Shown here in pieces: positions 1-34,600 of a stretch of 64,000 bases of DNA. The stretch comes from an uncultured Candidatus Saccharibacteria bacterium. GTDB taxonomy: Bacteria > Patescibacteriota > CPR2_A > CAYFQT01. The translations under genes were made by a program, and so were the position numbers. A model generated the notes under the pieces. It saw nothing but the letters and a program-made list of their open reading frames with translations, made no database searches and was not told where the DNA came from. How positions within the stretch are numbered: the stretch's first letter is position 1; the number at the start of each line of letters is the position of its first letter. The stretch is taken from NCBI GenBank assembly GCA_964345445.1, contig CAYFQT010000024.1, forward strand, positions 4,634 through 68,633. The letters are read 5' to 3'.

Positions 1-357
1 GAGGAAACAAAATTAACTCAGCAGTTTATTCAAGAGGAGATAAAAAAAGAAGAAGCTGCAGCCGCGAAAGCGCCCTCCTTCACTAAAGCTACGAAGGGTA
101 AACAAAAGGAGGCAAAAACACAAAGAGAAAAAGCTGCAATCACAAAGACGCAAAAACTTCGCAAAGACGTGAAAAAAGAGAAAGTAAAAAAACCATCTGT
201 AGTTAAAGCTTTAGAGGGTGAGGGAAAGAAAATAAAAGAAGAAAAGCCAAAGGTTATATCTAAAGAAAAGAAAAAATTTTTTGAGATAGAAAAAAGGCCA
301 AAAGTAAGAAAAAAAGAGTCATTTTTCAAAAAATTTTTTCGACGTAAATCTGTGTAG
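1..357 (+). CDS. 5'-partial Lys/Glu/Ala-rich low-complexity ORF, open from the window edge. By position it is the C-terminal extension of ribosomal protein L22 or a separate small basic protein
   Basis: Frame 1 is open from nt 1 to the TAG at 355-357. The translation is K/E-rich with no globular motif. It sits immediately upstream of rpsC, where rplV lies in the S10 operon. Confidence 0.35.
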   Translation, partial: EETKLTQQFIQEEIKKEEAAAAKAPSFTKATKGKQKEAKTQREKAAITKTQKLRKDVKKEKVKKPSVVKALEGEGKKIKEEKPKVISKEKKKFFEIEKRPKVRKKESFFKKFFRRKSV

Positions 358-490
358 CGGCTTCGCCACTACACAGATAGCCACAGATAAATTAATGATG
401 GACACGGATAACGGATAACGGGTCAAGTCAGTGATCAGTGGCTATCCGTAATCAATCAGTAAAAATCAGTGTTTTACTGGAGGTAAAAAT
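358..490 (+). repeat. Family-1 intergenic element (cacagat/cacggat/cagtgat word array), preceded by a post-stop hairpin and followed by a conserved pre-RBS leader
   Basis: tagcggcttcgccacta hairpin, then cacagatagccacagataaat...cagtgatcagtggctatccgtaatcaatcagtaaaaatcagtgttttactggaggtaaaaatATG. Confidence 0.8.
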
Positions 491-1174
491 ATGGGGCAAA
501 AAGTAAATCCAATAGGTTTAAGAATTGGTATCACAGATAGTTGGCGATCTAATTGGTTTGCTACCAAAGGATATACTAAATTCTTACATGAAGATATAAA
601 GCTACGTAATTTTATTCTTAAAAAATTATCTCGGCAAGGAGTAGCTTCTGTTTTAATTGAGAGATCAGCTAATAATATAATTGTTAATATTCATTCTTCT
701 AGACCTGGTGTGATTATTGGTAGAAAGGGTGAAGGTGTTGAAAAGTTAAGAGAACAACTGCAAAAGATAACTAAAACAAAAGTTCAGATTAATATTGAAG
801 AAGTTTCTGAACCAGAAAGCAATGCTTATTTGGTGGCTGAAAATATTGCTTCTCAGTTGGAAAAAAGAATTTCTTTTAGAAGGGCTTTAAAACAAACCAT
901 TGACCGAGCAATGAATACAAAAAGTTGCCAAGGAATAAAAATAACAGTTTGTGGAAGATTGGGGGGGATAGAAATGGCTAGATGTGAGACTTTAAATACT
1001 GGAAAGATGCCCTTGAATACTTTAAGATCCAATATTGATTATGCTTGTGTGCCTGCTTTTACAACTTATGGAGTAATTGGAGTAAAAGTTTGGATATATA
1101 AAGGTGAGATTTTTGAGAAGAAAGTTCAAAATGTTAAAAATGTTCAAGATGTTCAAAATTTTAGCAAGCGTTAG
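491..1174 (+). CDS. rpsC: 30S ribosomal protein S3
   Basis: N-terminus MGQKVNPIGLRIGI... is the S3 signature. RBS ggaggtaaaaat precedes the ATG. The C-terminal ~13 aa are encoded by the atgttcaa repeat array. Confidence 0.95.
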   Translation: MGQKVNPIGLRIGITDSWRSNWFATKGYTKFLHEDIKLRNFILKKLSRQGVASVLIERSANNIIVNIHSSRPGVIIGRKGEGVEKLREQLQKITKTKVQINIEEVSEPESNAYLVAENIASQLEKRISFRRALKQTIDRAMNTKSCQGIKITVCGRLGGIEMARCETLNTGKMPLNTLRSNIDYACVPAFTTYGVIGVKVWIYKGEIFEKKVQNVKNVQDVQNFSKR

Positions 1175-1243
1175 CGATAGAACAATTTGAACAAGGCCCA
1201 AGGGACCGATTGAACAATTAGAACATTTTCGGAGGAAATATTT
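1135..1243 (+). repeat. Family-4 element (atgttcaa / ttgaacat inverted word array), overlapping the rpsC 3' end
   Basis: aatgttaaaaatgttcaagatgttcaaaat ... atagaacaatttgaacaa ... ttgaacaattagaacatttt. Left and right arms are reverse complements. Confidence 0.75.
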
Positions 1244-1687
1244 ATGTTAATGCCTCGTAAGATAAAACATAGAAAACATCAAAGAGGAAGAATGTCGGGT
1301 AAATCTAGTCGAGGATCTTTAATTGCTTTTGGTCGTTTTGCTTTACTTTCTACTGGGCGTGCTTGGATATCTGCTCGTCAGATTGAAGCTGCTAGAAGAG
1401 CAATGACTCGTTATATAAAAAGAGGGGGAAAGATTTGGATTAGAGTTTTTCCTGACAAACCAGTAACCAAGAAAGGAGCAGAAACACCAATGGGAAGTGG
1501 AAAAGGATCTTTAGATCATTTTGTAGCTGTGGTAAAACCAGGAAAGATTTTGTTTGAAATGGATGGAGTCCCAGAGGATGTAGCTCGTGAAGCTATGAGA
1601 CTTGCTTCACATAAGTTATCTATTGGCACTAAATTTTTAGTTAAAGAAACTCCTGGTGAGGAGGAAACAAAAAATGAAGAAAATTAA
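1244..1687 (+). CDS. rplP: 50S ribosomal protein L16
   Basis: [17 protein letters not shown]...[25 protein letters not shown] is the L16 signature. RBS ggagg is present. Confidence 0.95.
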
Positions 1688-1922
1688 AGGCTTAAAAACG
1701 AAAAAAACAAGTGAATTAGTTTCTGAACTTAAAAAAACTCGTCAAAAATTAAGAGCTTTAAATTTTGATTTAGTGACTAAAAAGTTAAAAAATCATCAAG
1801 AAGTTACTTATACAAAAAGAAAGATTGCAATAATTTTGACAATTTTGTCAGAAAGAAGATTGGAAGAAATAGAAAAAATTGCAACCGCAGAGGTACAAAA
1901 AGAAGCAAAGAAGCAAAAGTAA
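1674..1922 (+). CDS. rpmC: 50S ribosomal protein L29
   Basis: [33 protein letters not shown]... is L29-like. ATG at 1674 is preferred over the track's GTG at 1656 (same frame) because RBS gaggagg lies upstream. Overlaps the rplP 3' end. Confidence 0.85.
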
Positions 1923-1986
1923 TTTAGCGACTTTGCTACAACAAATCAGTAACAATCTGTGTTTATCTAATGAATAGGAGATAATT
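1923..1986 (+). repeat. Short family-1-like leader (aatcagtaacaatctgtgttta)
   Basis: Same word set as the pre-RBS part of the family-1 spacers. Confidence 0.5.
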
Positions 1987-2235
1987 ATGGATAAAAAGAA
2001 AAAAAGGACTAAAATTGGTATGGTTGTAAGTGATAAAATGGATAAGACAGTTATTGTAGAAGTTGAAAGATTAAAAGAACACCCATTATATAAAAAAAAA
2101 TATAAAATAAATAGAAGATACAAAGCTCATGATTCTAAAAATGAGTATAAAAAAGGCGATAAAGTTGAAATAGAAGAGACAAGGCCTTTATCTCGTGAAA
2201 AGAGATGGAAAGTAGTGAGTAAAATATCCCAATAG
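1987..2235 (+). CDS. rpsQ: 30S ribosomal protein S17
   Basis: [29 protein letters not shown] is the S17 OB-fold signature. RBS ggagataatt is present. Confidence 0.9.
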
Positions 2236-2403
2236 CGGCTTTGCCACTACCATAAATAGCCACAGACCTACCTGTGCTCTACCAAAGGCGGACAGGCGGC
2301 AGGGCAGGTAAGTCACTGATGGCTACGGATCACAGATGGATCAGTGATTAATGGCTATCTGTAATCAATCCTTGTAAATCTGTGTTTTAGCGGAGATAAA
2401 AAT
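2236..2403 (+). repeat. Family-1 intergenic element with embedded GC-rich cctacctg...caggtaag palindrome
   Basis: tagcggctttgccacta hairpin; ...atagccacagacc; GC palindrome 2267-2322; gtcactgatggctacggatcacagatggatcagtgattaatggctatctgtaatcaatccttgtaaatctgtgttttagcggagataaaaatATG. Confidence 0.8.
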
Positions 2404-2772
2404 ATGATTCAATCTCAAACAAGATTAAAAGTAGCTGATAATACTGGAGCAAAAGAAATTATGTGTATCACAGTTTTAGGCGGCTCCCGAAAAAAATATG
2501 CAAAAATTGGAGATCTTATTACTGCTTCAGTTAAATCAGCTATACCCAATGGGGTGGTTAAAAAGAAAGATAAAGTTTTAGCAGTAATTGTGCGTACTAA
2601 TAAAGAATTTAGGAGGAAAGATGGAACAGTTGTACGTTTTGATGATAATGCAGCAGTAATTATAGGAAAAGATAGGGTTCCAAAAGGAACACGTATTTTT
2701 GGTCCTGTAGCACGAGAATTAAGAGAAAAAAGATTTTCTAAAATAATTTCCCAAGCGCCAGAGGTGCTTTAG
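2404..2772 (+). CDS. rplN: 50S ribosomal protein L14
   Basis: [22 protein letters not shown]... is the L14 signature. Confidence 0.95.
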
Positions 2773-2896
2773 CGGCTTCGCCGCTAAACACAGATTAGCT
2801 ACGGATAAATCAATGATGGCCACAGATTAAGGATTATGAATTACTAATTACTAATAACGAACCAGATCAGTAATCCGTGTTTAGAAGGAGGTGAAT
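2773..2896 (+). repeat. Family-1 intergenic element
   Basis: tagcggcttcgccgcta hairpin, then cacagattagctacggataaatcaatgatggccacagat... Positions 2805-2883 are identical to 3221-3299. Confidence 0.8.
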
Positions 2897-3205
2897 ATGA
2901 AAATAAAAAAGGATGATACAGTTTTAGTTATATGTGGGAAAGATCGAGGTAAGACAGGAAAAGTAGAAAAAGTTTTGCCTCAAAAAAATAAGATTGTAGT
3001 TTCAGGGGTTAATAAACTAAAAAAACATGTAAAACCTTCTTCTAAAAATCCACAAGGAGGAATTATTCAATTTGATGCTCCACTTGACATATCTAATGTA
3101 ATGTTATTATGTTCTCGATGTGATAGAACCACAAGAGTTGGATACAGAATATTAAAAGATGGAACAAAACAAAGGATTTGTAAAAAGTGTAAGGAAGCAG
3201 TATAA
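2897..3205 (+). CDS. rplX: 50S ribosomal protein L24 (KOW domain) with C-terminal CxxC...CxxC ribbon
   Basis: KIKKDDTVLVICGKDRGKTGKV is the KOW motif. ATG at 2897 follows RBS aaggagg. The C-terminus carries CSRC...CKKC. Confidence 0.85.
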   Translation: MKIKKDDTVLVICGKDRGKTGKVEKVLPQKNKIVVSGVNKLKKHVKPSSKNPQGGIIQFDAPLDISNVMLLCSRCDRTTRVGYRILKDGTKQRICKKCKEAV

Positions 3206-3386
3206 ACAGGATAGTTGCTGATAAATCAATGATGGCCACAGATTAAGGATTATGAATTACTAATTACTAATAACGAACCAGATCAGTAATCCGTGTTTAT
3301 TCGACTGAAAACTCGGGGTCCCAAAAATTGTAATGGAACAAAGCGGAATGTTAAGCAATTTTTGGGGTGAAAAAAAGAGGATAAAT
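3206..3386 (+). repeat. Family-1 intergenic element (contains exact 79-bp copy of 2805-2883)
   Basis: ataaatcaatgatggccacagattaaggattatgaattactaattactaataacgaaccagatcagtaatccgtgttta is identical in both spacers. Confidence 0.8.
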
Positions 3387-3932
3387 ATGGCTCGTCTCAA
3401 AGATAAATATGAGAAGGAAATTATTCCAAAATTAAAAGAAGAATTTGGTTATAAAAATGATTTACAAGCTCCCCGTATTTTAAAAGTGGTTATAAATAGT
3501 GGGGTAGGGAGATTTTCTAGAGATACAAAATATTTAGACCAAGTATCTCATGTTCTTGCACAAATTACTGGACAGAAACCTATTTCTAGGAATGCTAGAA
3601 AATCTATTGCCGGATTTAAAGTTAAGAAAGGAATGACTGTAGGCTATATGGTCACTTTAAGAGGGGTGCGGATGTATGAGTTTTTAGATAAATTAATTAA
3701 TATAGTTTTACCAAGAATTAGAGATTTTAAAGGGTTAGATCCAAAAGCTTTTGATGGGAAAGGAAATTATAATATTGGAATTACAGAACATACAGTTTTT
3801 CCAGAAATAAGCTACGAGGATGTTCAGCAGTCTTTTGGATTAGAAATTAGTATTATAACTACGGTTTCTGATAATAAAAAAGCAAAAAAACTCTTGGAAT
3901 TTTTAGGATTTCCCTTTAAAAAAGTATCATAA
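3387..3932 (+). CDS. rplE: 50S ribosomal protein L5
   Basis: [24 protein letters not shown]...VVINSGVG is the L5 signature. Start taken at the in-frame ATG 3387; the track start at 3333 lies inside the repeat spacer. Confidence 0.9.
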
Positions 3933-3952
3933 CGACCAAAGGGAGTAAAAAT

Positions 3953-4138
3953 ATGACTAATAAAGCACAGATTATAAAATCTCAAAAAAAACCTAAATAT
4001 AAAACTCGAAAAATAAATCGATGTAAAATATGTGGAAGGAAAAGAGCTTATATGCGTAAATTTGGAATGTGCCGGATTTGTTTTAGAGAGTTAGCTTCTC
4101 GTGGTGAGATACCAGGGATTACTAAATCAAGTTGGTAG
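3953..4138 (+). CDS. rpsZ: 30S ribosomal protein S14, type Z (zinc-binding)
   Basis: 61 aa with [25 protein letters not shown], the CxxC-x12-CxxC motif. Confidence 0.9.
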
Positions 4139-4419
4139 GTGCTGAAGGCACCTCCACAAATAACTCACAATTACAAAATATTACTCACAAATAGAAACTT
4201 GTTTGTCGGTTACGGTTACGAAACCCGCCCAGAAAGCTTTCTAGGCCCGTATCGTCTCTTGGTTACGAAGTTTGTCAATATAATGCTTGGATAACGTAGC
4301 CCTAACCGCCTCACGATACCCACTTCGTAACCCTAATCATAACTGATTAACTTTATAAAATAGTAATAGTGAGTCAAATGCTTGTTAAAGTGAGTAATAG
4401 TGATTTACCGGAGGTAAAT
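4139..4419 (+). repeat. Compound nested quasi-palindrome: family-3 arms (ttactcacaa / tagtgagtaa) flanking a family-6 core (ggttacg / cgtaacc)
   Basis: Left: aactcacaattacaaaatattactcacaaat. Core: cggttacggttacgaaacc...cgtaaccc. Right: aatagtaatagtgagtcaaatgcttgttaaagtgagtaatagtgatttaccggaggtaaatATG. Confidence 0.75.
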
Positions 4420-4857
4420 ATGACTGATCCAATAGCGGATATGTTAGTTAGAATAAGAAATAGTCAAATGGTTAAAAAAGAGTTTGTTATTGTTCCTTTT
4501 TCTAAAATTAAATGGGAAATAGGTAAAATTTTAGAAAAGGAAGGATTTATAAAAGATTGCAGTCGAATTAAGGCCAGTGATTTATATCAGGATAAGTCTT
4601 TTCGTCTCCGATTTTATAAAGGGAAAAATTTTCCTCAAATAAAAATTGAATTAAAATATTCTGATCAAAAACCAGCTGTATCTGGTCTTAGGCGAGTGAG
4701 TAAACCGGGCCGAAGAATTTATGTTAAAAAGGAAAAGTTACCTTATGTTTTAAGAGGATTAGGAATTGCTATTATTTCTACTTCTTTTGGTATAATGACT
4801 GACAAGGAGGCTAGGAAGAAGAAATTAGGAGGAGAAGTACTTTGTGAGATTTGGTAG
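4420..4857 (+). CDS. rpsH: 30S ribosomal protein S8
   Basis: [15 protein letters not shown]... is the S8 signature. ATG 4420 follows RBS ggaggtaaat. Confidence 0.9.
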
Positions 4858-4977
4858 ACACAATAATAAGTGTCAAGAGTGTCAAAAGTATCACAGGTGT
4901 CAAAGATATATTGCAATAATAACTGATACTTTTGATACATCTGATACCTCTGACACCTGCGACTGGAAGGAGCAAAT
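4858..4977 (+). repeat. Family-2 element: 10-bp-periodic gtgtca/gtatca words mirrored by tgatac/tgacac words around a tatata centre
   Basis: aagtgtcaagagtgtcaaaagtatcacaggtgtcaaagatatattgc...ctgatacttttgatacatctgatacctctgacacctgcgac. Confidence 0.8.
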
Positions 4978-5529
4978 ATGTCTAGAATAGGGAAAATGCC
5001 TATTAAAATCCCTGAAGGAATAAAAGTAAATATTCAAGGCAAAAAAATTACCACAAGTGGTCCTTGTGGAGAATTAAGCTATATTCTACCTGTTTGTATT
5101 GATGTGTTAGAGAAAGATAATAATTTAATTTTAAAAAGGAAAAATGAACAAAAAATTACTCGGAGCCTGCATGGCACTTCAAGAACTTTAATTTCTAATA
5201 TGATTTACGGAGTAACCAAAGGTTTTACAAAAGAATTAGAAATTTCTGGGATAGGTTTTAAAGCATCTAAAAAAGGTGATAATTTAGTATTACAAGTAGG
5301 ATTTTCTCATCCAGTAGAAATTAAACCTCCACAAGGAATAAGTTTTCAAGTTAACAAAAATATAATTACTGTTTTTGGAATTGATAAACAGAAAGTAGGT
5401 ACTATTGCTGCTAAAATCAGATCAGTTCGAAGGCCTGAACCTTATAAAGGCAAGGGAATTAAATATGTTGGGGAGGAAATAAAGAGAAAAGTAGGTAAGG
5501 CTGCTAAAGTAGGTACAGAAGGTCCATAG
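4978..5529 (+). CDS. rplF: 50S ribosomal protein L6
   Basis: MSRIGKMPIKIPEGIKV... is the L6 signature. RBS ggagcaaat is present. Confidence 0.9.
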   Translation: MSRIGKMPIKIPEGIKVNIQGKKITTSGPCGELSYILPVCIDVLEKDNNLILKRKNEQKITRSLHGTSRTLISNMIYGVTKGFTKELEISGIGFKASKKGDNLVLQVGFSHPVEIKPPQGISFQVNKNIITVFGIDKQKVGTIAAKIRSVRRPEPYKGKGIKYVGEEIKRKVGKAAKVGTEGP

Positions 5530-5610
5530 AAGTTAAAATTAGATTCCCTAAAAGAATGTTGCAGAGTGGGGGTGTAAAAAATTTCTGGGATGGTAAGAAG
5601 GGGTATAAGA

Positions 5611-5997
5611 ATGAGTAAATTAGATAAACAGAAATCTAGATTAAGACGAAAAAAAAGAATAAGATCAAAAGTTTTTGGTACAAAAAGAATACCTCGATTT
5701 TGTGTTACAATAAGTTTAAAACATATTTATGTGCAATTAATTAATGATGAGGAAGGAAAAACTATTTTAGCTGCTTGTGATAGCGAAATTGGAAAAAATA
5801 AAAAGTCTAAGAAAGATTTTAAAAAAAATAGTTTAAGTAGAAAAGTGGGATTGTCCTTTGAGGTAGGAAGGTTAGCAGCAAAGAAGGCAAAAGAGAAGAA
5901 AATAAAAAAGGTTGTTTTTGATCGCTCAGGATATAAATATCACGGTCGGGTAAAAGCAGTGGCTGAAGGGGCAAGAAAAGAAGGGTTGGAATTTTGA
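5611..5997 (+). CDS. rplR: 50S ribosomal protein L18
   Basis: MSKLDKQKSRLRRKKRIRSKVFGT...PRFCVTISLKHIYVQLI is the L18 signature. ATG 5611 is in frame with the track start 5590. Confidence 0.85.
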   Translation: MSKLDKQKSRLRRKKRIRSKVFGTKRIPRFCVTISLKHIYVQLINDEEGKTILAACDSEIGKNKKSKKDFKKNSLSRKVGLSFEVGRLAAKKAKEKKIKKVVFDRSGYKYHGRVKAVAEGARKEGLEF

Positions 5998-6149
5998 AGT
6001 CACTTTGTAACTTCCACTATCACTTACAGTTACAGACTATTACTCACAAATGAAATATATAATAGTGAGTTAAATGTATGTAATAGTGAGTAACTTGTGT
6101 TTGTCCGAAGGACAAAATAGTAAGTAATAGTGATTTGCCGGGGGCAAAT
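5998..6149 (+). repeat. Family-3 element (cactatcacttaca...ttactcacaaat // atagtgagttaa...tagtgagtaa)
   Basis: Nearly identical word order to 7785-7901 and 16030-16121. Ends in tagtgatttgccgggggcaaatATG. Confidence 0.75.
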
Positions 6150-6530
6150 ATGAATCGGAAAATTTTACTTTTAATTATATTTTTACTAGCAATTGCAGGA
6201 CTTCTTTTTACAGAACAGGGGAAAAGTATTATTGACAGGTTTCGTAGTTATCATCAGTTAACCATCCATCTTAAAGATTCTCAAAAAGAAAATGTTTCTT
6301 CAGCTGAAGTAGGGGTATTCAAAACTTCTGAAAGTGTTAATGAAACCATTGAATCGAAAGAAACAGATGAAAATGGAAAAGTAACATTTACTCTTCCAGA
6401 AGGAAGATATTATATTTGGGTAGCTAATCCTTTAGAACCTGCAAAGAGAGAAACTATTTTTTTTCCTGGGGACGGAGAAGGAGTTTCCTTGTTATATAAT
6501 AGAGAAATAGAGGTTGTTACTAGTCCTTAA
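6150..6530 (+). CDS. Hypothetical small signal-anchored/secreted protein with a beta-rich, Cna-B/carboxypeptidase-regulatory-like domain, inserted between rplR and rpsE
   Basis: MNRKILLLIIFLLAIAGLLF is a hydrophobic N-terminus. Motifs ENGKVTFTLPEGRYYIWV suggest a beta sandwich. There is no ribosomal-protein homology, and L30 would normally follow L18/S5 here. Confidence 0.5.
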   Translation: MNRKILLLIIFLLAIAGLLFTEQGKSIIDRFRSYHQLTIHLKDSQKENVSSAEVGVFKTSESVNETIESKETDENGKVTFTLPEGRYYIWVANPLEPAKRETIFFPGDGEGVSLLYNREIEVVTSP

Positions 6531-6565
6531 AATTAGCTTCTTAGGTTAAAAAAACAGGAGTTAAA

Positions 6566-7129
6566 ATGATTAAGAAGAAAAATGAGATAAAAGAAAAAAA
6601 TAATAAATCTTCTAGCAATTTAAAGAAAAAAGGAAATACAAAGACACCCGGGGTTGCAGAAGAGAAACCAGAGGAAATTAAAGAAAAAATAGTTCAGATT
6701 GATCGAGTGGCTCGAGTAGTTAAAGGTGGTAGAAGATTTAGATTTAGAGCAATTGTTGTGGTAGGAAATGAAAAAGGTAGAGTAGGAGTAGGAGTGGGGA
6801 AAGGAACAGAGGTATCTCTAGCAGTACAAAAAGCGAAGGCCAAAGCACAAAAAAATATGATTTCTGTTCCACTACAAGGCTTTACTATTCCTCATGAAAT
6901 TCAGGTTTCTTTTGGAAGTGCAAAAGTTCTCTTAAAACCAGCTTCACCTGGTACTGGGGTGATTGCTGGAGGAGCAGTAAGAGCAGTTGTAGAATTAGCT
7001 GGTGTAAAAGATATTCTAAGTAAAATTTTGGGATCAGCTAATAAAGTTAATAATGTCCAAGCAGCCTTTTTGGCTCTAAAAGAAATAAAGTCGCCTATTA
7101 ATACGGATAAGCCACGGATAAATCACTAA
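6566..7129 (+). CDS. rpsE: 30S ribosomal protein S5 with Lys-rich N-terminal extension
   Basis: [36 protein letters not shown] is the S5 signature. The last codons (NTDKPRINH) are read from cacggat/cacagat repeat words. Confidence 0.9.
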
Positions 7130-7235
7130 TAGCCACAGATTACCAATAACAAATAACTAATAATGAATCAAATCAGTGATCAGTGGCTATCTATAATAAA
7201 TCAGTGAAAATCTGTGTTTTACCGGAGGTAAAAAT
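7100..7235 (+). repeat. Family-1 element starting inside the rpsE 3' end
   Basis: aatacggataagccacggataaatcactaatagccacagat ... aaatcagtgatcagtggctatctataataaatcagtgaaaatctgtgttttaccggaggtaaaaatATG. Confidence 0.8.
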
Positions 7236-7784
7236 ATGCAGTTACATAAACTTAAATCAAGAAAATTAAAGAGTGTAAAAAGAGTAGGTAGAGGAATTTC
7301 AGCTGGGAGAGGGAAAACCTGTGGCCGAGGCACTAAAGGACAAAAATCCCGATCTGGTGCAAAAGCAAAACCAGGTTTTGAAGGTGGACAATCCTCCCTT
7401 ATTAAACGCTTGCCCAAAAAAAGAGGATTTTATAATATATTTTCTACACACTGGCAGATTGTTAATGTAGGTAAATTAAATGAGTTAAAAAATGGAACAA
7501 AAGTTAATATTAAATTATTATATAATAAAGGAATTATTAGAGATTTAAAAGATAAATTAAAAATTTTAGGTGATGGGGTATTGGATAAAAAGTTAGAAAT
7601 TTATGCCCATTCATTTTCCAAACAAGCTAGGAAGAAAATAGAACAAGCTGGAGGAAAGGCAGTTATAGTAAAGGTGTCACAAGTGTCAGGTGTATCACAG
7701 GTGTCAAAAGAGAAAAAAGCTGCAAACCTGAAAAAAACCACCCCGCAGAAACAGAACAAGCAAGAACGTAAAAAACCTAAGTAG
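7236..7784 (+). CDS. rplO: 50S ribosomal protein L15 with extended Lys-rich C-terminus
   Basis: LKSVKRVGRGISAGRGKTCGRGTKGQKSRSG is the L15 signature. It directly follows rpsE with no rpmD (L30) between. The C-terminal VKVSQVSGVSQVSKEKK is encoded by gtgtca repeat words. Confidence 0.9.
   Translation: MQLHKLKSRKLKSVKRVGRGISAGRGKTCGRGTKGQKSRSGAKAKPGFEGGQSSLIKRLPKKRGFYNIFSTHWQIVNVGKLNELKNGTKVNIKLLYNKGIIRDLKDKLKILGDGVLDKKLEIYAHSFSKQARKKIEQAGGKAVIVKVSQVSGVSQVSKEKKAANLKKTTPQKQNKQERKKPK
7676..7715 (+). repeat. Family-2 words inside the rplO coding sequence (encodes VKVSQVSGVSQVSK)
   Basis: aaggtgtcacaagtgtcaggtgtatcacaggtgtcaaaag. Confidence 0.6.
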
Positions 7785-7901
7785 CGGCTTCGCCGCTAGC
7801 ACTATCACTTACAATTACAGACTATTACTCACAAATGAAATATATAATAGTGAGTTAAACGTAGGTGATAGTGAGTAATAGTGATTTGCCAGAGGCAAAT
7901 A
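7785..7901 (+). repeat. Family-3 element with post-stop hairpin tagcggcttcgccgcta
   Basis: gcactatcacttacaattacagactattactcacaaatgaaatatataatagtgagttaaacgtaggtgatagtgagtaatagtgatttgccagaggcaaataATG. Confidence 0.8.
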
Positions 7902-9191
7902 ATGCTGGAGAAAATTAAACAAGTTTTTACCTACAAAGATTTAAGAAAGAAAATTTTATACACCATAGCTTTGTTAGTTATTTTTCGCATTGCTGCTTCT
8001 ATCCCTATTCCCTGGGTAAATTTAGAAGCATTAAGGGAATTCTTTACAAAAAGTAGAGTTTTAGGAATTTTAAATATTCTCTCTGGTGGAGCTATGAGTC
8101 GATTTTCTATTGTAATGATGGGTGTAGCTCCTTATATTAATGCTGTAATTATTATGGAACTTTTGACAATGATTATTCCGCGTCTTGAAGCTTTATCCAG
8201 AGAAGGAGAACAAGGACATAACAAAATTAATCGATATACTAGATATTTGACTGTTCCTTTAGCTGCTTTAGAATCTTTTGGGATGATTAAACTTTTACAG
8301 ACTCAAGGACAACAGGCAGGTCAGCAGATTTTACCACAGATTACTTTTTTTCAATGGATAGCTATGGTTATAACTATAACTTGTGGGACTATATTTGTAA
8401 TGTGGTTAGGGGAATTAATTTCTGAAAGCGGTATAGGCAATGGAATATCTTTAATTATTTTTGTGGGAATTATAGCTGGTGGACCGCAAGCTTTACAACA
8501 TGTTTTTGCTTCTTTAATGAATAAAGAACAAATTTTACAATTATTTATTTTTCTTTTTATAGCTTTGGTGGTAATTTTTGGAGTAGTTTTAGTAGACCGA
8601 GGACAACGGAAAATTCCTGTATCTTATGCTAAGCAGATTAGAGGAATGAAAATGTATGGCGGAGTAGCTTCTCATATTCCTTTAAAAGTAAATCAAGGCG
8701 GAGTGATCCCTATAATTTTTGCCATTTCTTTAATGCTCTTCCCAGGAATGGTTGCCAATTTTTTCACAACAGCCAAGACTGTTTGGATCGCTTCTGTTGC
8801 TTCATTTGTAGCTAATCTTTTTAAAAATCCTATTTTTTATGGAAGTTTATATTTTCTTTTAGTAGTTGGATTTACTTATTTTTATACAGCAATTGTTTTT
8901 AATCCTGAACGAATAGCAGAAAATCTTCAAAAACAAGGAGGATTTATACCTGGAATTCGTCCTGGTCCTTCTACTATAGAATATCTGCATAAGTTATTAA
9001 ATCGAATTAATTTAGCAGGGGGGGTATTTTTAGGAGCTATTGCTGTATTGCCCCTTTGTTTCCAAAGTTTAATTCCTGGTTTAGATTTAGCTATTGGAGG
9101 AACAGGACTTTTAATTGTAGTTAGTGTAATATTAGAAACCTCAGAACAAATAAAAGCTCAGGTTTTAATGCGGAGCTATGAGAGCTACTAA
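7902..9191 (+). CDS. secY: Preprotein translocase subunit SecY
   Basis: 10-TM profile with SecY motifs GIGNGISLIIF and GGVIPIIFA. ATG 7902 is preferred over the track's GTG 7881, which lies in the repeat spacer. Confidence 0.9.
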   Translation: MLEKIKQVFTYKDLRKKILYTIALLVIFRIAASIPIPWVNLEALREFFTKSRVLGILNILSGGAMSRFSIVMMGVAPYINAVIIMELLTMIIPRLEALSREGEQGHNKINRYTRYLTVPLAALESFGMIKLLQTQGQQAGQQILPQITFFQWIAMVITITCGTIFVMWLGELISESGIGNGISLIIFVGIIAGGPQALQHVFASLMNKEQILQLFIFLFIALVVIFGVVLVDRGQRKIPVSYAKQIRGMKMYGGVASHIPLKVNQGGVIPIIFAISLMLFPGMVANFFTTAKTVWIASVASFVANLFKNPIFYGSLYFLLVVGFTYFYTAIVFNPERIAENLQKQGGFIPGIRPGPSTIEYLHKLLNRINLAGGVFLGAIAVLPLCFQSLIPGLDLAIGGTGLLIVVSVILETSEQIKAQVLMRSYESY

Positions 9192-9374
9192 ATATAAAAT
9201 TCTAAATTCAAAATTATAAACACTAAACAATATCGAATGTTTTAAATCCAAATGTTCAAAAATAAATCTGATTTACAGAATAGTTTAAGACATTAAAAAA
9301 TTTAAATTTTGAATTTGTTTAGATATTAGAAATTAGATATTAGGATTTATTTCTTAAATTAATAAGAGATTTCT
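9192..9374 (+). repeat. Family-5 element (ttctaaat / aatcctaaat words mirrored by atttagaa / attaggatt)
   Basis: aaattctaaattcaaaatt...ttaaatccaaatgttc ... gaatttgtttagatattagaaattagatattaggatttatttc. Confidence 0.7.
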
Positions 9375-10037
9375 ATGAAGTCTTTAAACATTATTCTTTT
9401 TGGTCCTCCTGGAACAGGTAAAGGAACTCAGGCACAAAAGCTAGCACATAGACTTGGTTTGGAATATATTGCTACTGGGGACTTTGTTCGTGATTTTGCC
9501 AAAAAAAATGATAAACTAGGAAAAGAGGTAAAAAAATATTTGGATTCTGGAGAACTTGTTCCTAATGAAATAATTAATGATTATATAAGGAAGAAATTAA
9601 ATAAATTACCCAAATCTTCCGGAGTAATTTTTGATGGTTTTCCTAGGAATAGAAAACAAGCCGAAGATTTTAAGAAAATATTACAGGATACAAAAAGAAA
9701 TAATTTAAAGGTTATTTATATAAAAAGTAGTGAAAAAGCCTTAGTGGAAAGATTAAGTAATAGAAAGATTTGTAAAGAATGTAAGAAAATTTTTCCTAAT
9801 CCTCCGGCAGATATGAAGAAATGCCCTCAGTGTAGGGGCAAGTTATTTATTCGAAATGATGATAGACCTATGGTTGTTAGACAGAGACTTCATATATATA
9901 ATATTCGGACAAAACCATTAGTTGATTATTATAAAGAAGAAGGCAAATTAGTAGAGATTAATGGAGATCAGCCAATTGAAGAAGTTTTTGAGGAAATTTT
10001 AAGTAAAATTGGAAAAGATAATTGTTCAAAATGTTGA
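9375..10037 (+). CDS. adk: Adenylate kinase (zinc-lid type)
   Basis: IILFGPPGTGKGTQA is the P-loop. The LID carries CKECKK...CPQCRG, four Cys. Confidence 0.9.
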   Translation: MKSLNIILFGPPGTGKGTQAQKLAHRLGLEYIATGDFVRDFAKKNDKLGKEVKKYLDSGELVPNEIINDYIRKKLNKLPKSSGVIFDGFPRNRKQAEDFKKILQDTKRNNLKVIYIKSSEKALVERLSNRKICKECKKIFPNPPADMKKCPQCRGKLFIRNDDRPMVVRQRLHIYNIRTKPLVDYYKEEGKLVEINGDQPIEEVFEEILSKIGKDNCSKC

Positions 10038-10184
10038 AATTGTTCAAGATGTTCAAATTGAACAAGGACAAGTGAGCGGAGCGAACGATTGGACAAATGA
10101 ACGAAGTGAGTGATTGAACAAACGAAGTCCCGCTCAGCGGGACGAGCGATAGAACAACTCGAACATTTTTGGAGAAGACCCAAA
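10020..10184 (+). repeat. Family-4 element (ttgttcaagatgttcaaattgaacaa ... ttgaacaaacgaag ... agaacaactcgaacattttt) with central gtcccgctcagcgggac hairpin
   Basis: Same words as 1135-1243. Overlaps the adk 3' end. cccgctcagcggg is a perfect palindrome. Confidence 0.7.
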
Positions 10185-10952
10185 ATGATTATTATAAAAA
10201 AACCTGAAGAAATCGAAAAAATGCGCCAAGGGGGGAAAATTTTAACAGATATCTTAAGGTATATAAAAAAAGAGATTAAACCAGGAATAACTACAAAAAA
10301 ATTAGATAGTTTGGCAGAAAATTTGATATATAAAAATAATGCCACTCCTTCTTTTAAAAATTTTTCATCTAACTCTTATCAGGAAATAAAATACCCAGCT
10401 GCTTTATGTACTTCAGTCAATGATGAGGTAGTACATGGGATTCCTTCGAGTCGGAAATTAAAAGAAGGGGATATAATAGGTTTAGATTTAGGAATTTGTT
10501 TTAAAAGTTTTTATACAGATGCAGCTATTACTGCCCCAGTGGGAAAGGTTGGAAAAGAAGTTAAAAGATTAATTGATGTTACAAAAAAAGCTTTAAAGCA
10601 AAGCGTTAAAGAGGTAAAACCAAAAAATAGAATTGGAGATGTTTCTTCGGTTATTCAAAAAACAATAGAAGCTGCTGGTTTTTCACCAGTTAGAGATTGT
10701 GTAGGACACGGAGTGGGAAAATTTGTTCATGAGGAGCCTTCGATTCCTAATTATGGTGAGCCCGGGGTAGGCAAGTTATTAAAGACAGGAATGACTTTAG
10801 CTATTGAACCCATAGCTGATTTAAGAGAATATAAAGTAAAAGTTTGCCAGGACGGTTGGACAATCAGAACTTGTGATGGAAGCCCCTCAAGCCATTTTGA
10901 ATGGACAGTCGCTGTCACTGATGATGGATATGAGGTTTTGACACCGATTTAA
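10185..10952 (+). CDS. map: Methionine aminopeptidase type I
   Basis: M24 fold motifs GDIIGLDLG, VGHGVGKFVHEEP and LAIEP. ATG 10185 is in frame with the track start 10110, which lies within the repeat spacer. Confidence 0.9.
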   Translation: MIIIKKPEEIEKMRQGGKILTDILRYIKKEIKPGITTKKLDSLAENLIYKNNATPSFKNFSSNSYQEIKYPAALCTSVNDEVVHGIPSSRKLKEGDIIGLDLGICFKSFYTDAAITAPVGKVGKEVKRLIDVTKKALKQSVKEVKPKNRIGDVSSVIQKTIEAAGFSPVRDCVGHGVGKFVHEEPSIPNYGEPGVGKLLKTGMTLAIEPIADLREYKVKVCQDGWTIRTCDGSPSSHFEWTVAVTDDGYEVLTPI

Positions 10953-11140
10953 AGATAAAGTGTCACAAGTATCAAAGGTGTCAAAAGTAGCCACTTTTAG
11001 AAAATAATTAGAAAAGTCCTAAATCCGAAACAAATTATAATGTCCCAAATTCTAAATTATAAACTGTTTGAAACATTGGAACATTAGAATTTAGATATTG
11101 TTTAGAAATTATATATTAGAAATTAGGATTTTAAAAGCCT
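10953..11140 (+). repeat. Short family-2 block (gtgtcacaagtatcaaaggtgtcaaaag) followed by a family-5 element
   Basis: ...aagtcctaaatccgaaacaaattataatgtcccaaattctaaatt ... ttagaatttagatattgtttagaaattatatattagaaattaggatttt. Confidence 0.7.
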
Positions 11141-13050: not shown

Positions 13051-13437
13051 ATGGCACGTATTGCTGGTGTAAATATTCCCACTGATAAAAGAATAGAAAT
13101 TTCTTTAACCTATATTTATGGTATAGGCAGGAGTTTAAGTGGCAAAATTTTATCTCAAGCTAACATTGATCCAAATGTAAAGACTTCTGCTTTAACCGAG
13201 GAAGAAATAAATCGCCTTAGAGAAATAATAGAGAAAAATTATAAGGTAGAAGGAGATTTAAAAAGAGAAATAACTAAAAATATTAAGAGATTAAAAGATA
13301 TTAGTAGTTACAAAGGGGATAGACATAGGAGAAATCTTCCTACCAGAGGGCAAAGAACTAAAACTAATGCTAGAACAAAAAGAGGGAAGAAAGTTACTGT
13401 AGGAACCGGTCGTAGAAAACCACCCGAGAAAACTTAG
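13051..13437 (+). CDS. rpsM: 30S ribosomal protein S13
   Basis: [28 protein letters not shown] is the S13 signature. ATG 13051 follows RBS aaggagc. The track's upstream extension is read from repeat words. Confidence 0.9.
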
Positions 13438-13575
13438 GCGCCTACGGCGTCTCACGAGAGCCACGGATAAGTCACTGATGGCCGCGGCTCACGGATAACT
13501 AATGTCTAATCAGATCAGTGATCAGTGGCTATCCGTAATAAATTAGTGGCAATCTGTGTTTAAATGGGGAATAAA
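13438..13575 (+). repeat. Family-1 element with post-stop hairpin aggcgcctacggcgtct
   Basis: gagccacggataagtcactgatggccgcggctcacggataactaatgtctaatcagatcagtgatcagtggctatccgtaataaattagtggcaatctgtgtttaaatgggg. Confidence 0.8.
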
Positions 13576-16121: not shown

Positions 16122-16472
16122 ATGAGGCATCGGAAAAAGGGTAAAAAATTAAATTTATCTAAAGATAGACGAGAGGCTTTATTAAAAAATTTAGCTACTT
16201 CAGTTATTCTTTATGAAAAAGTAAAGACCACTGAAGCTAAAGCTAAAGCAGTACGTCCTATTGTTGAGAAGCTAATTACTATAGGTAAAAAAGGTAATTT
16301 ATCTGCACAAAGACAGCTTTTATCTTATTTACCTGACAGGAATGCTGTGCGGAAAATTATGGAAGAATTTGCTAAAAAATACAAAGATAAGCCTGGAGGT
16401 TATATAAGGATTTATAAAATCGGATATAGAGCTGGAGACAAAGCCAAAATGGTTTATATAGAACTTATTTAG
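16122..16472 (+). CDS. rplQ: 50S ribosomal protein L17
   Basis: MRHRKKGKKLNLSKDRREALLKNLATSVILYEKVKTTEAKAKAVRPIVEKLIT is the L17 signature. Confidence 0.9.
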   Translation: MRHRKKGKKLNLSKDRREALLKNLATSVILYEKVKTTEAKAKAVRPIVEKLITIGKKGNLSAQRQLLSYLPDRNAVRKIMEEFAKKYKDKPGGYIRIYKIGYRAGDKAKMVYIELI

Positions 16473-16641
16473 GTCCTTTGGACCCTCCACAGATAGCCAC
16501 GACCTGCCTGCTCCACCAAAAGCGGACAGGCGGCAGGCAAGTAAATCACTGATGGCCACGGATCGCAGATCACAACTTATGGATTATAGATTAATAATCA
16601 GTGACAATCCATGGTTATTTGACTGAAAGGAGAATAACAAG
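16473..16641 (+). repeat. Family-1 element with post-stop hairpin aggtcctttggaccct and embedded GC palindrome
   Basis: ccacagatagccacgacctgcctgctccaccaaaagcggacaggcggcaggcaagtaaatcactgatggccacggatcgcagatcacaact...aatcagtgacaatccatggttatttgactgaaaggag. Confidence 0.8.
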
Positions 16642-18883: not shown

Positions 18884-18956
18884 TAATAACTAATAATTTT
18901 TATCCACCCCTGCCTGTCGGCAGACAGGCTTGGTGGAAATAACTAATAACCATACT

Positions 18957-34351: not shown

Positions 34352-34600
34352 TTTTACCTCTCTATTTCCGATTAACTTTTGTTAATCGGAACGAGCCGTT
34401 CTAGTCGCTTGCAAGCGACTAGAAATAGGCCGAAAAACACGGATTTACACAGATTTTTTATGGATAGCCACTGATCACTGATTTGGTCCATTACTCGTTA
34501 TCCGTTATTAGTTATCCGTGATCTGTGGCTATCAGTGATTTACCTGCCTGCCGGCAGGTCCGTGGCTATCTGTGGTAGAGCAGTGAAACTGCTACATATA
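34352..34600 (-). repeat. Family-1 element in minus orientation forming the 5' leader of rpmE
   Basis: Reverse complement reads gtagcagtttcactgctac (hairpin) caccacagatagccacggacctgccggcaggcaggtaaatcactgatagccacagatcacggataactaataacggataacg...aaatcagtgatcagtggctatccataaaaaatctgtgtaaatccgtgttttt...gagaggtaaaaATG. Confidence 0.8.

What the first reader, a model, noticed from the sequence alone, without database searches (positions are those of the whole stretch)
358..490. Family-1 spacers share a three-part architecture: covarying post-stop hairpin, word array, and near-identical pre-RBS leader
Nine spacers begin right after the stop codon with a 6-7-bp hairpin whose stem covaries between copies. 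The hairpins are tagcggcTTCgccgcta (2773, 7785), tagcgacTTCgtcgcta (12658, compensatory g>a and c>t), aggcgccTACggcgtct (13438), ggtccTTTggacc (16473) and gtagcagTTTCActgctac (34575-34593, minus strand). The nine spacers are at 358, 2236, 2773, 3206, 7100, 12658, 13438, 16473 and 34352-34600 on the minus strand. Each ends with a nearly invariant segment (a)atcagtgaaaatctgtgtttta(c/g)cggag(g/a)taaaaatATG placed directly on the RBS. For rpmE the predicted -10/-35 puts the transcription start exactly at this hairpin. So the module can be the 5' end of an mRNA. Compensatory base changes in the hairpins are the signature of a conserved RNA structure. The conserved pre-RBS segment looks like a shared translational-control or processing site across many ribosomal-protein genes.
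Basis: seen in the sequence. Interest (0 to 1): 0.7.

Follow-up and report, generated by a model that had tools for sequence, protein, structure and literature searches.

The report
Palindromic repeat elements filling ribosomal-operon spacers
The nine spacers are copies of one roughly 100-175-base palindromic repeat that has been inserted between ribosomal-protein genes of an uncultured, AT-rich bacterium; it behaves like a small mobile element carried inside the operon transcript rather than a dedicated ribosomal-protein regulator.

Summary
The repeat family is real. A covariance model recovers exactly the nine listed spacers in the window. It also finds one more copy upstream on the same genome and one copy in an 83%-related organism, at a different gene junction.

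The 'word array' and most of the 'pre-RBS leader' are the two arms of a single long imperfect palindrome, TAAACACAGAT...ATCTGTGTTTA (34 pairs, 89% paired). Two small hairpins flank it. One contains the UAG stop codon. The other presents the Shine-Dalgarno sequence (UUUUACC-GGA-GGUAAAA). Both small hairpins covary; the long one does not.

Family 1 is one of at least five word-built palindromic families that fill nearly every spacer of this ribosomal-protein cluster. Close relatives carry other families, or almost no spacer, at the same junctions. At S5-L15 the element even encodes the last 12 codons of S5. The hairpins are equally stable on both strands. No Rfam family matches.

The best reading is a MITE-like insertional repeat that is co-transcribed and tolerated because it folds away. 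It may have been recruited for mRNA processing, stability or translational coupling, but that is untested. I rate it a new variant of a known kind, of moderate interest.

The parts
348..378 (+). Copy 1 (L22-S3): stop-codon hairpin. The core is UAGCGGCUUCGCCACUA at 355-371. It extends to a 14-nt-arm hairpin that covers the last L22 codons.
   Evidence: (arms 348-361/365-378, 93% complementary)
372..471 (+). Copy 1: long imperfect palindrome. Left arm CACAGATAGCCACAGAT..., apical 7-nt words (ACGGATA x2.6), right arm ...ATCAGTGGCTATCCGT...ATCAGTG.
472..490 (+). Copy 1: Shine-Dalgarno hairpin UUUUACU-GGA-GGUAAAA, directly before the S3 ATG at 491.
1922..1986 (+). Minimal copy (L29-S17). It has a small hairpin at 1925-1938 and the right-arm segment ATCAGTAACAATCTGTGTTTA at 1945-1965, with no long palindrome.
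   Evidence: (D10); below the covariance-model threshold
2233..2403 (+). Copy 2 (S17-L14): stop hairpin 2233-2249, palindrome with a nested GC-rich hairpin insert at 2265-2309, and Shine-Dalgarno hairpin 2385-2401.
   Evidence: (110.5 bits)
2770..2896 (+). Copy 3 (L14-L24), short form: stop hairpin 2770-2786 and terminal inverted repeats CTAAACACAGATTA / TAATCCGTGTTTAG at 2784-2797 and 2871-2884.
   Evidence: (52.4 bits, not in the training set)
3203..3299 (+). Copy 4 (L24-L5), short form, 93% identical to copy 3 over 99 nt. It has no stop hairpin; the L24 stop TAA is the first three bases of the element. A separate hairpin leader of L5 follows at 3300-3386.
   Evidence: D11; 39.5 bits
7088..7235 (+). 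Copy 5 (S5-L15). The left arm lies inside the S5 coding sequence and encodes its last 12 residues and its stop (7127-7129). Shine-Dalgarno hairpin at 7217-7233.
   Evidence: 124.5 bits; the junction is 3 nt in relative L083
12655..12829 (+). Copy 6 (IF1-L36): stop hairpin 12655-12671 (G>A and C>U relative to 2770), palindrome, and a Shine-Dalgarno hairpin with a larger loop at 12805-12825.
   Evidence: (133.8 bits)
13435..13575 (+). Copy 7 (S13-S11): stop hairpin 13436-13452 and palindrome whose right end is at 13552-13562.
   Evidence: (132.7 bits)
16470..16641 (+). Copy 8 (L17-L13): stop hairpin 16472-16484, nested GC-rich hairpin insert 16501-16538, and a degraded right arm.
   Evidence: (88.4 bits)
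34433..34595 (-). Copy 9, in the 5' UTR of rpmE (L31): hairpin 34575-34595, nested GC hairpin 34542-34561, palindrome, and right end at 34433-34444. The promoter-like site at 34601-34629 lies just outside the element.
   Evidence: (134.9 bits)

Best explanation
Family 1 is a non-coding, MITE-like palindromic repeat of about 100-175 nt. Its terminal inverted repeats are TAAACACAGAT...ATCYGTGTTTA. It has spread by insertion or cassette exchange into the stop-to-start junctions of the S10/spc/alpha ribosomal-protein cluster of an uncultured, CPR/Patescibacteria-like bacterium.

It is one of at least five such word-built palindromic families in this genome. The element is co-transcribed with the operon. 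No promoters or sense-strand terminators are associated with it.

In the RNA, the two arms should fold into one long imperfect hairpin. This brings the upstream stop codon and the downstream ribosome-binding site close together, so the insertion is tolerated in an essential operon.

Two short hairpins at the ends are kept by compensatory changes. One contains the UAG stop codon. The other presents GGA(GG) of the Shine-Dalgarno sequence in its loop. I infer that these hairpins adapt the insertion to expression, by protecting the 3' end of the upstream cistron and by presenting or gating the downstream ribosome-binding site. The long double-stranded stem may also be cut by a double-strand-specific RNase.

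Shown here: the family, the palindrome, the covariation of the end hairpins, the insertion relative to relatives, and the turnover.

Inferred only: co-transcription, folding in vivo, and any processing or translational role.
For: - Family and palindrome: covariance-model hits. In the structure count, 40 pairs are 88.9% paired, against 20-43% when the partners are slid. Inverted repeats are found in every copy.
- Recent copying: spacers 2785-2883 and 3201-3299 are 93% identical.
- Insertion: the S5-L15 junction is 106 nt here but 3 nt in L083 and overlapping in L086. The S5 tail [12 protein letters not shown] is encoded by the element.
- S3 C-terminal tails change with whichever repeat family lies downstream.
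- Turnover: the same junctions carry other families in relatives with 83-90% S3 identity, and an F1 copy sits at S3-L16 in L090.
- Median spacer length rises from 5 nt (L086) to 27 (L085), 66 (L083) and over 100 nt (L089, L090); the window's cluster spacers run about 60-330 nt.
- The core 20-mer was found only in the organism's own contig in the metagenome scan.
- Strand symmetry: sense and antisense folding energies do not differ (mean difference 0.06 kcal/mol, Wilcoxon p = 0.63). The long stem has only 2 of 34 pairs with changes on both sides.
- General phenomenon: 29 spacers have a mean folding z-score of -2.7, against -0.1 for coding controls.
- Nested GC-rich hairpins sit at the same position in three copies.
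- Rfam has no match.
- There is no excess of promoter-like sites and there are no sense-strand terminators in the spacers.
- The features match those listed for bacterial MITEs: under 200 bp, terminal inverted repeats, TA at the termini, long stem-loop transcripts, and fusions to open reading frames (PMC2229807).
Against: - No transposase or parent element is present in the 64 kb window.
- No clean target-site duplication could be demonstrated. The TA flanks are ambiguous in an AT-rich genome.
- All ten full or short copies (nine in the window, one in L001) have the same orientation relative to transcription, including the one on the minus strand. This indicates selection at the RNA or expression level rather than purely selfish spread.
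- The stop hairpin varies far more between copies than the rest of the element, yet stays paired. Simple copying does not predict this.
- Replacement of one family by another at the same junction looks more like cassette exchange or gene conversion than classical transposition.
- The arms are built from 7-10-nt words, which is not typical of described MITEs.
Confidence: 0.6

Rival explanations
1. It is a selected intercistronic RNA-processing and stabilisation module. The long stem is cut by RNase III or a similar enzyme. The stop-codon hairpin then protects the new 3' end of the upstream cistron. The Shine-Dalgarno hairpin together with ribosome binding protects the new 5' end of the downstream cistron. 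This would set the relative amounts of the ribosomal proteins, like selective RNA processing and stabilisation in Clostridium or the RNase III sites of phage T7.
For: - The module runs exactly from the stop codon to the ribosome-binding site.
- Orientation relative to transcription is strictly conserved in all ten copies.
- The two end hairpins covary.
- The stems contain about 20 bp of near-continuous duplex.
- Spacers of all families are significantly structured.
- Relatives keep hairpins at the same junctions even when the sequence family differs.
- Stem-loops flanking intergenic processing sites are known to tune subunit stoichiometry (PMC4423207).
Against: - There is no sense-strand bias in stability or in G.U pairs.
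- The long stem does not covary.
- More distant relatives manage with junctions of 0-30 nt.
- No transcript data are available.
- This reading is compatible with exaptation of a mobile repeat, so it is not strictly exclusive of the best explanation.
Confidence: 0.2
2. It is a translational-coupling or translational-control device. The left arm (or the stop hairpin) is opened by the ribosome finishing the upstream gene. This releases the right arm and remodels the Shine-Dalgarno hairpin, so that downstream translation stays coupled despite a spacer of more than 100 nt. In a variant, an RNA-binding protein that recognises GGA in a hairpin loop (CsrA-like), or a ribosomal protein, binds the shared Shine-Dalgarno hairpin. 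This is closest to the first reader's idea.
For: - The Shine-Dalgarno hairpin is the best-supported structure: 13 examples, 95.6% paired, 6 of 7 pairs covary.
- It places GGA in the loop.
- In several spacers the left arm lies inside the end of the upstream coding sequence, in S5 and S3.
- The stop hairpin lies within a terminating ribosome's footprint (established knowledge of ribosome footprints).
Against: - The 13 hairpins were picked by eye, so ascertainment bias is possible.
- The hairpin is also a DNA palindrome, and the right-arm end may simply be complementary to the genome's consensus ribosome-binding region GGAGGTAAAAAT.
- Copies 3206 and 34433-34595 lack it.
- No binding protein was identified.
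- The element precedes nine different genes and is not conserved at those genes in relatives.
Confidence: 0.12
3. The words are DNA-level or RNA-level binding-site arrays for a sequence-specific protein (a nucleoid protein, a transposase or a repressor). Alternatively, they are simple products of replication slippage, like the heptamer tandem repeats (TAACTGA, STRR) seen upstream of genes in Beggiatoaceae and cyanobacteria. In this reading the palindromic symmetry is secondary.
For: - Short-period tandem units are detected in the spacers: period 7 with 2.1-2.7 copies in F1, and period 9-10 in other families.
- The words share the frame CAC-N-GAT / ATC-N-GTG.
- The hairpins are strand-symmetric.
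- TAACTGA repeats occur inside ribosomal-protein operons of Beggiatoaceae (PMC4679880).
Against: - The arrays are short and imperfect.
- The dominant signal is inverted symmetry over about 34 pairs, not direct repetition.
- Each family has its own words, so several binding proteins would be needed.
Confidence: 0.08

Closest known systems
Bacterial MITEs: Correia/NEMIS of Neisseria, ERIC/IRU of enterobacteria, RUP, and Rickettsia palindromic elements (review PMC2229807)
   Same: - About 100-200 bp and non-coding.
- Terminal inverted repeats with TA at the ends.
- Many dispersed copies, mostly between genes.
- Co-transcribed, with transcripts predicted to form long stem-loops.
- Can fuse in frame to the ends of genes.
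- Nested and short/long variants exist.
- Present or absent at a given site between relatives.
   Different: - The arms are built from 7-10-nt words.
- At least five families share one architecture and saturate a ribosomal-protein cluster.
- Orientation relative to transcription is strict.
- An extra stop-codon hairpin and a Shine-Dalgarno hairpin covary.
- No transposase partner or target duplication has been shown.
- Families appear to replace one another at the same junction.
Neisseria REP2 and Borrelia IR repeats (PMC3184786)
   Same: These repeats sit immediately upstream of genes, bring a ribosome-binding site up to the ATG, and contain internal stem-loops.
   Different: - REP2 carries its own promoter and has no terminal inverted repeats.
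- F1 shows no promoter signal.
- F1 is a full-length palindrome and lies inside operons.
Intergenic stem-loops of selective RNA processing and stabilisation (Clostridium cellulolyticum cip-cel, PMC4423207) and RNase III sites between phage T7 genes (from my own knowledge)
   Same: Stable hairpins placed between cistrons of one transcript, which could define processed ends and relative transcript stability.
   Different: Those are single-copy, site-specific structures with mapped cleavage sites. F1 is a multi-copy repeat with no transcript data.
TAACTGA heptamer direct repeats of marine Beggiatoaceae, cyanobacteria and Bacteroidetes (PMC4679880)
   Same: Short-period word repeats just upstream of start codons, including inside ribosomal-protein operons. 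Their function is unknown, and a role in translation has been proposed.
   Different: Those are perfect direct tandem arrays without inverted symmetry. F1 has only 2-3 imperfect 7-nt units at the tip of a palindrome.
Ribosomal-protein autoregulatory leaders (Rfam r-protein leader families)
   Same: Structured RNA directly upstream of ribosomal-protein genes.
   Different: Those are gene-specific rRNA mimics conserved across taxa. F1 precedes nine different genes, has no Rfam match, and is not conserved at those genes in close relatives.

Membership tests
Bacterial MITE (Correia/ERIC/RUP type) | Small (about 100-200 bp) with no coding capacity of its own | tested here: met
   The copies span 97-175 nt between the stop codon and the ribosome-binding site.
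Bacterial MITE (Correia/ERIC/RUP type) | Terminal inverted repeats | tested here: met
   CTAAACACAGATTA / TAATCCGTGTTTAG, 14 nt and 93% complementary. The outer helix CACAGAT/ATCTGTG is 85.7% paired across 8 copies.
Bacterial MITE (Correia/ERIC/RUP type) | TA at the termini and target-site duplication | tested here: inconclusive
   TA is present at both inferred ends in about 7 of 10 copies (read). The boundaries are ambiguous, TA is common at 32% GC, and the filled and empty S5-L15 sites are too diverged to show a duplication.
Bacterial MITE (Correia/ERIC/RUP type) | Multiple dispersed copies, present or absent at orthologous sites | tested here: met
   Nine copies in the window and one in L001. 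S5-L15 is empty in L083, L085 and L086. A copy sits at S3-L16 only in L090/L091.
Bacterial MITE (Correia/ERIC/RUP type) | A cognate transposase or parent insertion sequence with the same ends | not testable with these tools
   Only 64 kb of the genome is available and it holds no transposase domain.
Bacterial MITE (Correia/ERIC/RUP type) | Transcript folds into a long stem-loop | tested here: met
   In silico only: MFE -23 to -91 kcal/mol, with z-scores from about -0.4 (2773 short form) to -8.4 against shuffles. The consensus has 34 pairs in the long stem.
REP / REPIN with RAYT transposase | A short GC-rich palindrome of conserved sequence at high copy number, in inverted pairs | tested here: not met
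   The stop hairpin is REP-sized, but its sequence differs between copies and it occurs singly.
Ribosomal-protein autoregulatory leader | Matches a described leader family | tested here: not met
   Rfam gives no hit on any F1 copy in gathering or E-value mode.
Ribosomal-protein autoregulatory leader | Tied to one gene and conserved there across relatives | tested here: not met
   The element precedes nine different genes, and the orthologous junctions in L083, L089 and L090 carry other sequences.
Neisseria REP2 / Borrelia IR type repeat | The repeat supplies a promoter, a ribosome-binding site and the ATG context | tested here: not met
   The ribosome-binding hairpin is continuous with the right arm in most copies. 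There is no excess of promoter-like sites: 60 found against 67.5 expected, and none recurs in F1.
RNase III / selective-processing stem-loop | About 20 bp or more of duplex RNA between cistrons | tested here: met
   A predicted 17-pair near-continuous helix lies within the 34-pair stem.
RNase III / selective-processing stem-loop | Mapped processing sites in the transcript | not testable with these tools
   No transcriptome data are available for this organism.
Heptamer tandem repeats (TAACTGA / STRR type) | Arrays of perfect direct heptamer repeats upstream of start codons | tested here: not met
   Only 2.1-2.7 copies of various 7-nt units (ACGGATA, AATTACT, AATAACA) are found, and there is no TAACTGA array.

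The most novel reading that the evidence does not exclude
In this lineage the intercistronic spacers of essential operons may have been rebuilt into a modular RNA 'punctuation' system. Each junction would carry a stop-codon hairpin, a long double-stranded stem of interchangeable sequence family, and a Shine-Dalgarno hairpin. Together these would direct cleavage of the polycistronic ribosomal-protein transcript into stabilised single-gene mRNAs, or maintain translational coupling across spacers longer than 100 nt. The repeat families would then be the evolvable raw material of a genome-wide expression mechanism, not passengers. This would be a bacterial counterpart of organellar intercistronic processing.
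Probability: 0.2. Interest if true: 0.8.

Novelty: new variant of a known kind. Interest (0 to 1): 0.5.

Why it matters
Ribosomal-protein operons are among the most compact and conserved gene arrays in bacteria, and candidate-phyla bacteria have small, streamlined genomes. Here almost every junction of that array (spacers of 60-330 nt, against 0-30 nt in more distant relatives) is filled with fast-evolving palindromic repeats that even rewrite protein C-termini. Either selfish elements can colonise the most constrained operon of a reduced genome when they fold out of the way, or the lineage has adopted hairpin cassettes to control processing and stoichiometry of ribosomal-protein mRNAs.

There are practical consequences too. 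These elements create false ORF starts and extended tails: the apparent S13 start at 12988 lies inside a repeat, as do the S3 and S5 tails. They can also mislead searches for new regulatory RNAs, because repeat copies look like 'conserved' motifs.

Tried and rejected
- Genome-collection scan with S3.
- Metagenome scan with the 20-mer core. It returned only the organism's own contig.
- Cluster look-up for organism names. No names were returned.
- Rfam in gathering and permissive modes. Nothing matches the spacers. The only weak hit is Alpha_RBS, below threshold, at 12967-13083.
- Sense-versus-antisense stability, tested as a sign of RNA-level selection. There is no difference, so I dropped the claim that the long stem is an RNA-selected structure.
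- Promoter and terminator scan. There is no promoter enrichment and no sense-strand terminators in the F1 spacers, so I rejected the ideas that the repeats are promoter carriers (like Correia or REP2) or terminators.
- Near-identical contigs L001/L002, checked for strain polymorphism. The only differences are assembly gaps.
- Orthologous S8-L6 spacers, window against L083. The changes are partly wobble-compatible and partly disruptive, which is not decisive.
- Specificity of F1 for ribosomal-protein genes. All 9 copies precede such genes, but 21 of 27 genes in the cluster are ribosomal, so p is about 0.06 by my own hand calculation. I do not claim specificity.
- A first attempt to align the extra motif before rpmE used wrong coordinates for two L083 copies. 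It was not pursued further.

Full report
CONTEXT

The window is AT-rich (26-42% GC, mostly 30-35%). Positions 1-17,700 hold the S10/spc/alpha ribosomal-protein cluster on the + strand. The rest of the window is housekeeping genes.

Several features point to an uncultured CPR/Patescibacteria-like organism. There is no L30 gene between S5 and L15. The lysyl-tRNA synthetase is class I. A DUF5656 protein is present, and a PEGA-domain gene sits inside the cluster.

No species representative in the genome collection has more than about 56% S3 identity. The same sequence occurs in two independent NCBI metagenome assemblies (L001 and L002, 99.5-100% identical), so it is not an assembly artefact. The only differences between them are assembly gaps.

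CHECKING THE OBSERVATION

All nine listed spacers are related (alignment A1). I built a covariance model from eight full-length copies. It finds, in the window, exactly the nine listed places on the sense strand at 39-135 bits. This includes the two short copies that were not used for training.

The model also finds a copy between L23 and L2 on L001. It finds a copy at 86.6 bits in L090/L091, an organism with 83% S3 identity, where it lies between S3 and L16.

The 14-mer core occurs 10 times against 0.13 expected, on both strands within the same spacers. The quoted hairpins are present and stable.

- Only six of the nine copies begin with a hairpin at the stop codon.
- The 22-mer 'leader' is within three mismatches in only three copies.
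- The hairpin cited at 7785 belongs to another family.

A minimal tenth copy at 1922-1986 was overlooked.

ANATOMY

RNAalifold on eight copies predicts two things. The first is the small hairpin at the stop codon. The second is a long helix that pairs GATGGCCACAGATCACGGAT on the left with ATCAGTGATCAGTGGCTATC on the right.

I extended this outwards by hand. The result is 34 pairs in one long imperfect hairpin. Together with the stop hairpin, 88.9% of cells are paired, against 20-43% when the partners are slid by 1-3 columns. Inverted repeats are found in every copy.

The short copies define the ends. They are CTAAACACAGATTA and TAATCCGTGTTTAG, 14 nt and 93% complementary. Similarity between copies 2785-2883 and 3201-3299 (93% identical) stops right after GTGTTTA.

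So the 'word array' and most of the 'pre-RBS leader' are the two arms and the tip of one palindrome. The tip carries 2-3 imperfect 7-nt units. Three copies carry a nested GC-rich hairpin (CCTGCC...GGCAGG) at the same position.

COVARIATION

The stop hairpin contains the UAG itself and differs in sequence between copies while staying paired. Five of its six pairs have changes on both sides.

The last 17 nt before the spacer to the ATG form a second small hairpin, UUUUACC-GGA-GGUAAAA, with GGA of the Shine-Dalgarno sequence in the loop. I collected 13 examples from this genome and from relatives. They include spacers of another family and one internal copy that does not precede a gene. In this set 95.6% of cells are paired, six of seven pairs have double changes, and no shuffle out of 500 reaches the observed values. 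The caveat is that I picked these examples by eye.

The long stem behaves differently. Only 2 of its 34 pairs show a double change, and the rest are invariant or change on one side.

IT IS NOT SPECIAL TO FAMILY 1

Nearly every spacer of the cluster is long (60-330 nt) and built the same way from other words:
- GTGTCA / TGATAC
- ACTCACAAATA / TAATAGTGAGT
- AAATCCTAAAT / ATTAGGATTT
- GTTCAA / TTGAAC
- GGTTAC / GTAACC

Twenty-nine spacers have a mean folding z-score of -2.7 against dinucleotide shuffles. Coding controls give -0.1.

Stop-codon hairpins of -5 kcal/mol or better occur at 9 of the 28 genes in the cluster and at none of the other 36 genes. They accompany three different families.

EVOLUTION

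I retrieved relatives through their S3 proteins. The median spacer is 5 nt in L086 (62% S3 identity), 27 nt in L085 (66%), 66 nt in L083 (83%), and 104-155 nt in L089 and L090. In the window the cluster spacers run about 60-330 nt.

The same junction carries different families in different relatives.
- L22-S3 is F1 in the window, a CACGAAT family in L089, an AGTACT family in L090, and a short spacer in L083.
- S3-L16 is the GTTCAA family in the window and in L083, the CACGAAT family in L089, and F1 in L090.

At S5-L15 the relatives have 3 nt or an overlap. The window has a 106-nt F1 copy whose left arm encodes the last 12 residues and the stop codon of S5. The C-terminal tail of S3 after YKGEIF likewise changes with the family downstream.

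The F1 core 20-mer occurs nowhere else in the metagenome collection except the organism's own contig. These are the marks of insertion and rapid turnover, not of an ancient regulatory RNA.

RNA OR DNA

The hairpins are as stable on the antisense strand as on the sense strand (mean difference 0.06 kcal/mol, p = 0.63). The covariance model also scores the antisense strand of the same loci at 21-63 bits. The long stems therefore look like DNA-level palindromes. There is no sign that sense-strand G.U pairs were favoured.

Orientation is nevertheless constant. The stop hairpin is always on the 5' side, and the A-rich tip words and the Shine-Dalgarno hairpin are always on the 3' side. This holds in all ten copies, including the one in front of the minus-strand gene rpmE. 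Expression therefore constrains which way the element sits.

The spacers show no excess of promoter-like sites (60 found against 67.5 expected) and no sense-strand intrinsic terminators. They are most probably transcribed as part of the operon. The rpmE copy lies directly behind the best promoter-like site in its region (TTGCTA-17-TATAAT, 10 of 12 matches). It also shows that the 'UAG' of the first hairpin belongs to the element rather than to an upstream gene.

COMPARISON WITH WHAT IS KNOWN

No Rfam family matches.

The features listed for bacterial MITEs are size under 200 bp, terminal inverted repeats, TA at the termini, long stem-loop transcripts, location mostly between genes, and in-frame fusion to gene ends (PMC2229807). 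F1 meets these, with two exceptions. A target duplication is ambiguous, and a partner transposase cannot be looked for in 64 kb.

Other partial parallels exist. Neisseria REP2 and Borrelia IR repeats bring a ribosome-binding site and ATG context to downstream genes, but they carry a promoter and lack terminal inverted repeats (PMC3184786). Correia and ERIC transcripts are reported to be targets of RNase III and RNase E (PMC2229807). Stem-loops at intergenic processing sites tune subunit stoichiometry in Clostridium (PMC4423207). TAACTGA heptamer arrays occur inside ribosomal-protein operons of Beggiatoaceae with unknown function (PMC4679880).

Four things are unusual here:
- The arms are built from short words.
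- Several families share one architecture.
- They saturate the most conserved operon cluster of a reduced genome.
- Two end hairpins covary while the body does not.

I found no description of such elements in CPR bacteria in the searchable literature.

VERDICT

The interpretation as a shared regulatory site of ribosomal-protein genes is only partly supported.

The best-supported explanation (0.6) is a MITE-like palindromic repeat family that inserts at stop-to-start junctions, is co-transcribed and folds away. Its end hairpins are maintained by selection. A selected role in processing (0.2) or in translational coupling or control (0.12) remains open and may coexist with mobile origin.

I rate it a new variant of a known kind, with interest 0.5.

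Noticed in passing
window 4855-4980, 12944-13062, 10950-10990, 29253-29311, 36274-36376, 38442-38535, 43403-43554: A second palindromic spacer family built from 9-nt words: GTGTCA/GTATCA on the left and TGATAC/TGACAC on the right. It has its own ribosome-binding context, CACCTGCGAC-GAAGGAGCAAATATG. The apparent S13 ORF start at 12988 lies inside this repeat; the real start is probably near 13050.
   Followed up: partly
window 4136-4425, 5995-6152, 7782-7904, 16027-16124: A third family (ACTCACAAATA... / TAATAGTGAGT...). It shares the stop-codon hairpin and the Shine-Dalgarno hairpin with family 1. The L18-unk126 spacer holds two tandem units, including an internal 'Shine-Dalgarno hairpin' (GTTTGTCCGAAGGACAAA) that precedes no gene.
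   Followed up: partly
window 1115-1246 and 10020-10187; L001 4136-4250: A fourth family (GTTCAAAAT x4 / TTGAACAA). Its left arm lies inside the 3' end of the upstream gene, giving S3 the tail VQNVKNVQDVQNFSKR. A fifth family (AAATCCTAAAT / ATTAGGATTT) is at 9189-9377, 11000-11145, 17702-18007 and 42433-42611.
   Followed up: partly
window 34357-34431 (- strand); L083 7970-8050, 9710-9788, 15985-16068: A separate structured motif lies directly before the Shine-Dalgarno sequence of rpmE: GGCCUAUUUC - hairpin - GAACGGCUCGUUC - hairpin - GAAAUAG-AGAGG. Three further copies in relative L083 sit before L14, S8 and the PEGA gene, and their hairpins covary. It has no Rfam match. It may be another repeat family or an undescribed cis-regulatory RNA. 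My one alignment attempt used imperfect coordinates.
   Followed up: partly
window 2265-2309, 16501-16538, 34542-34561, 18905-18940; L090 900-1060: Small GC-rich hairpins (CCTGCC...GGCAGG) are nested at the same position inside three family-1 copies. They also occur alone in other spacers and in a relative. They look like a second layer of small palindromic insertions.
   Followed up: no
window 6135-6530; L083 11389-11772: An extra ORF of about 126 aa lies between L18 and S5 in the spc operon and is conserved in the 83% relative. Its only Pfam hit is weak (prealbumin-like SpaA fold, E = 7e-5). CPR genomes lack L30, but a new gene at this position is unusual.
   Followed up: no
window 11221-12078; L083 16066-16784: A PEGA-domain protein gene is inserted between map and infA inside the ribosomal-protein cluster. 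It is conserved in the relative.
   Followed up: no
window 1-25000 (stop codons): TAG is the commonest stop codon in the ribosomal-protein cluster (about 16 of 26 genes) even though the genome is about 32% GC. Over the whole window the counts are 31 TAA, 23 TAG and 9 TGA. Many of these TAGs are the first bases of the repeat's hairpin, so the elements may supply or select the stop codon.
   Followed up: partly
window 58000-58083 and 58140-58185: A c-di-GMP-II riboswitch (69.9 bits, above the gathering score) lies far upstream of a 459-aa proline/glutamate/lysine-repeat protein (58656-60035). A run of family-1-like words (ACACGGAT, ACGCGGAT, ACGGAT, ACACGGAT) follows it.
   Followed up: no
window 46205-47654 and 51643-52385: Two long stretches have no convincing ORF and no Rfam match, even in permissive mode. 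They could hold divergent non-coding RNA genes or decayed genes.
   Followed up: partly
window 12967-13083: A weak, sub-threshold Rfam match to the Alpha operon ribosome-binding site (23.5 bits against 38 required, E = 0.083) lies before S13, where the S4-binding leader sits in E. coli. It overlaps a family-2 palindrome and may be spurious.
   Followed up: no
window 47412-47466, 56777-56831, 57449-57503: Another small repeat has a GC palindrome in an AT-rich frame (ATATACCGCGACCGCGATAGAAATATATATTT). Two of the three copies are 91% identical, and they flank the PaaX/Cas2-like gene at 56871-57425.
   Followed up: no
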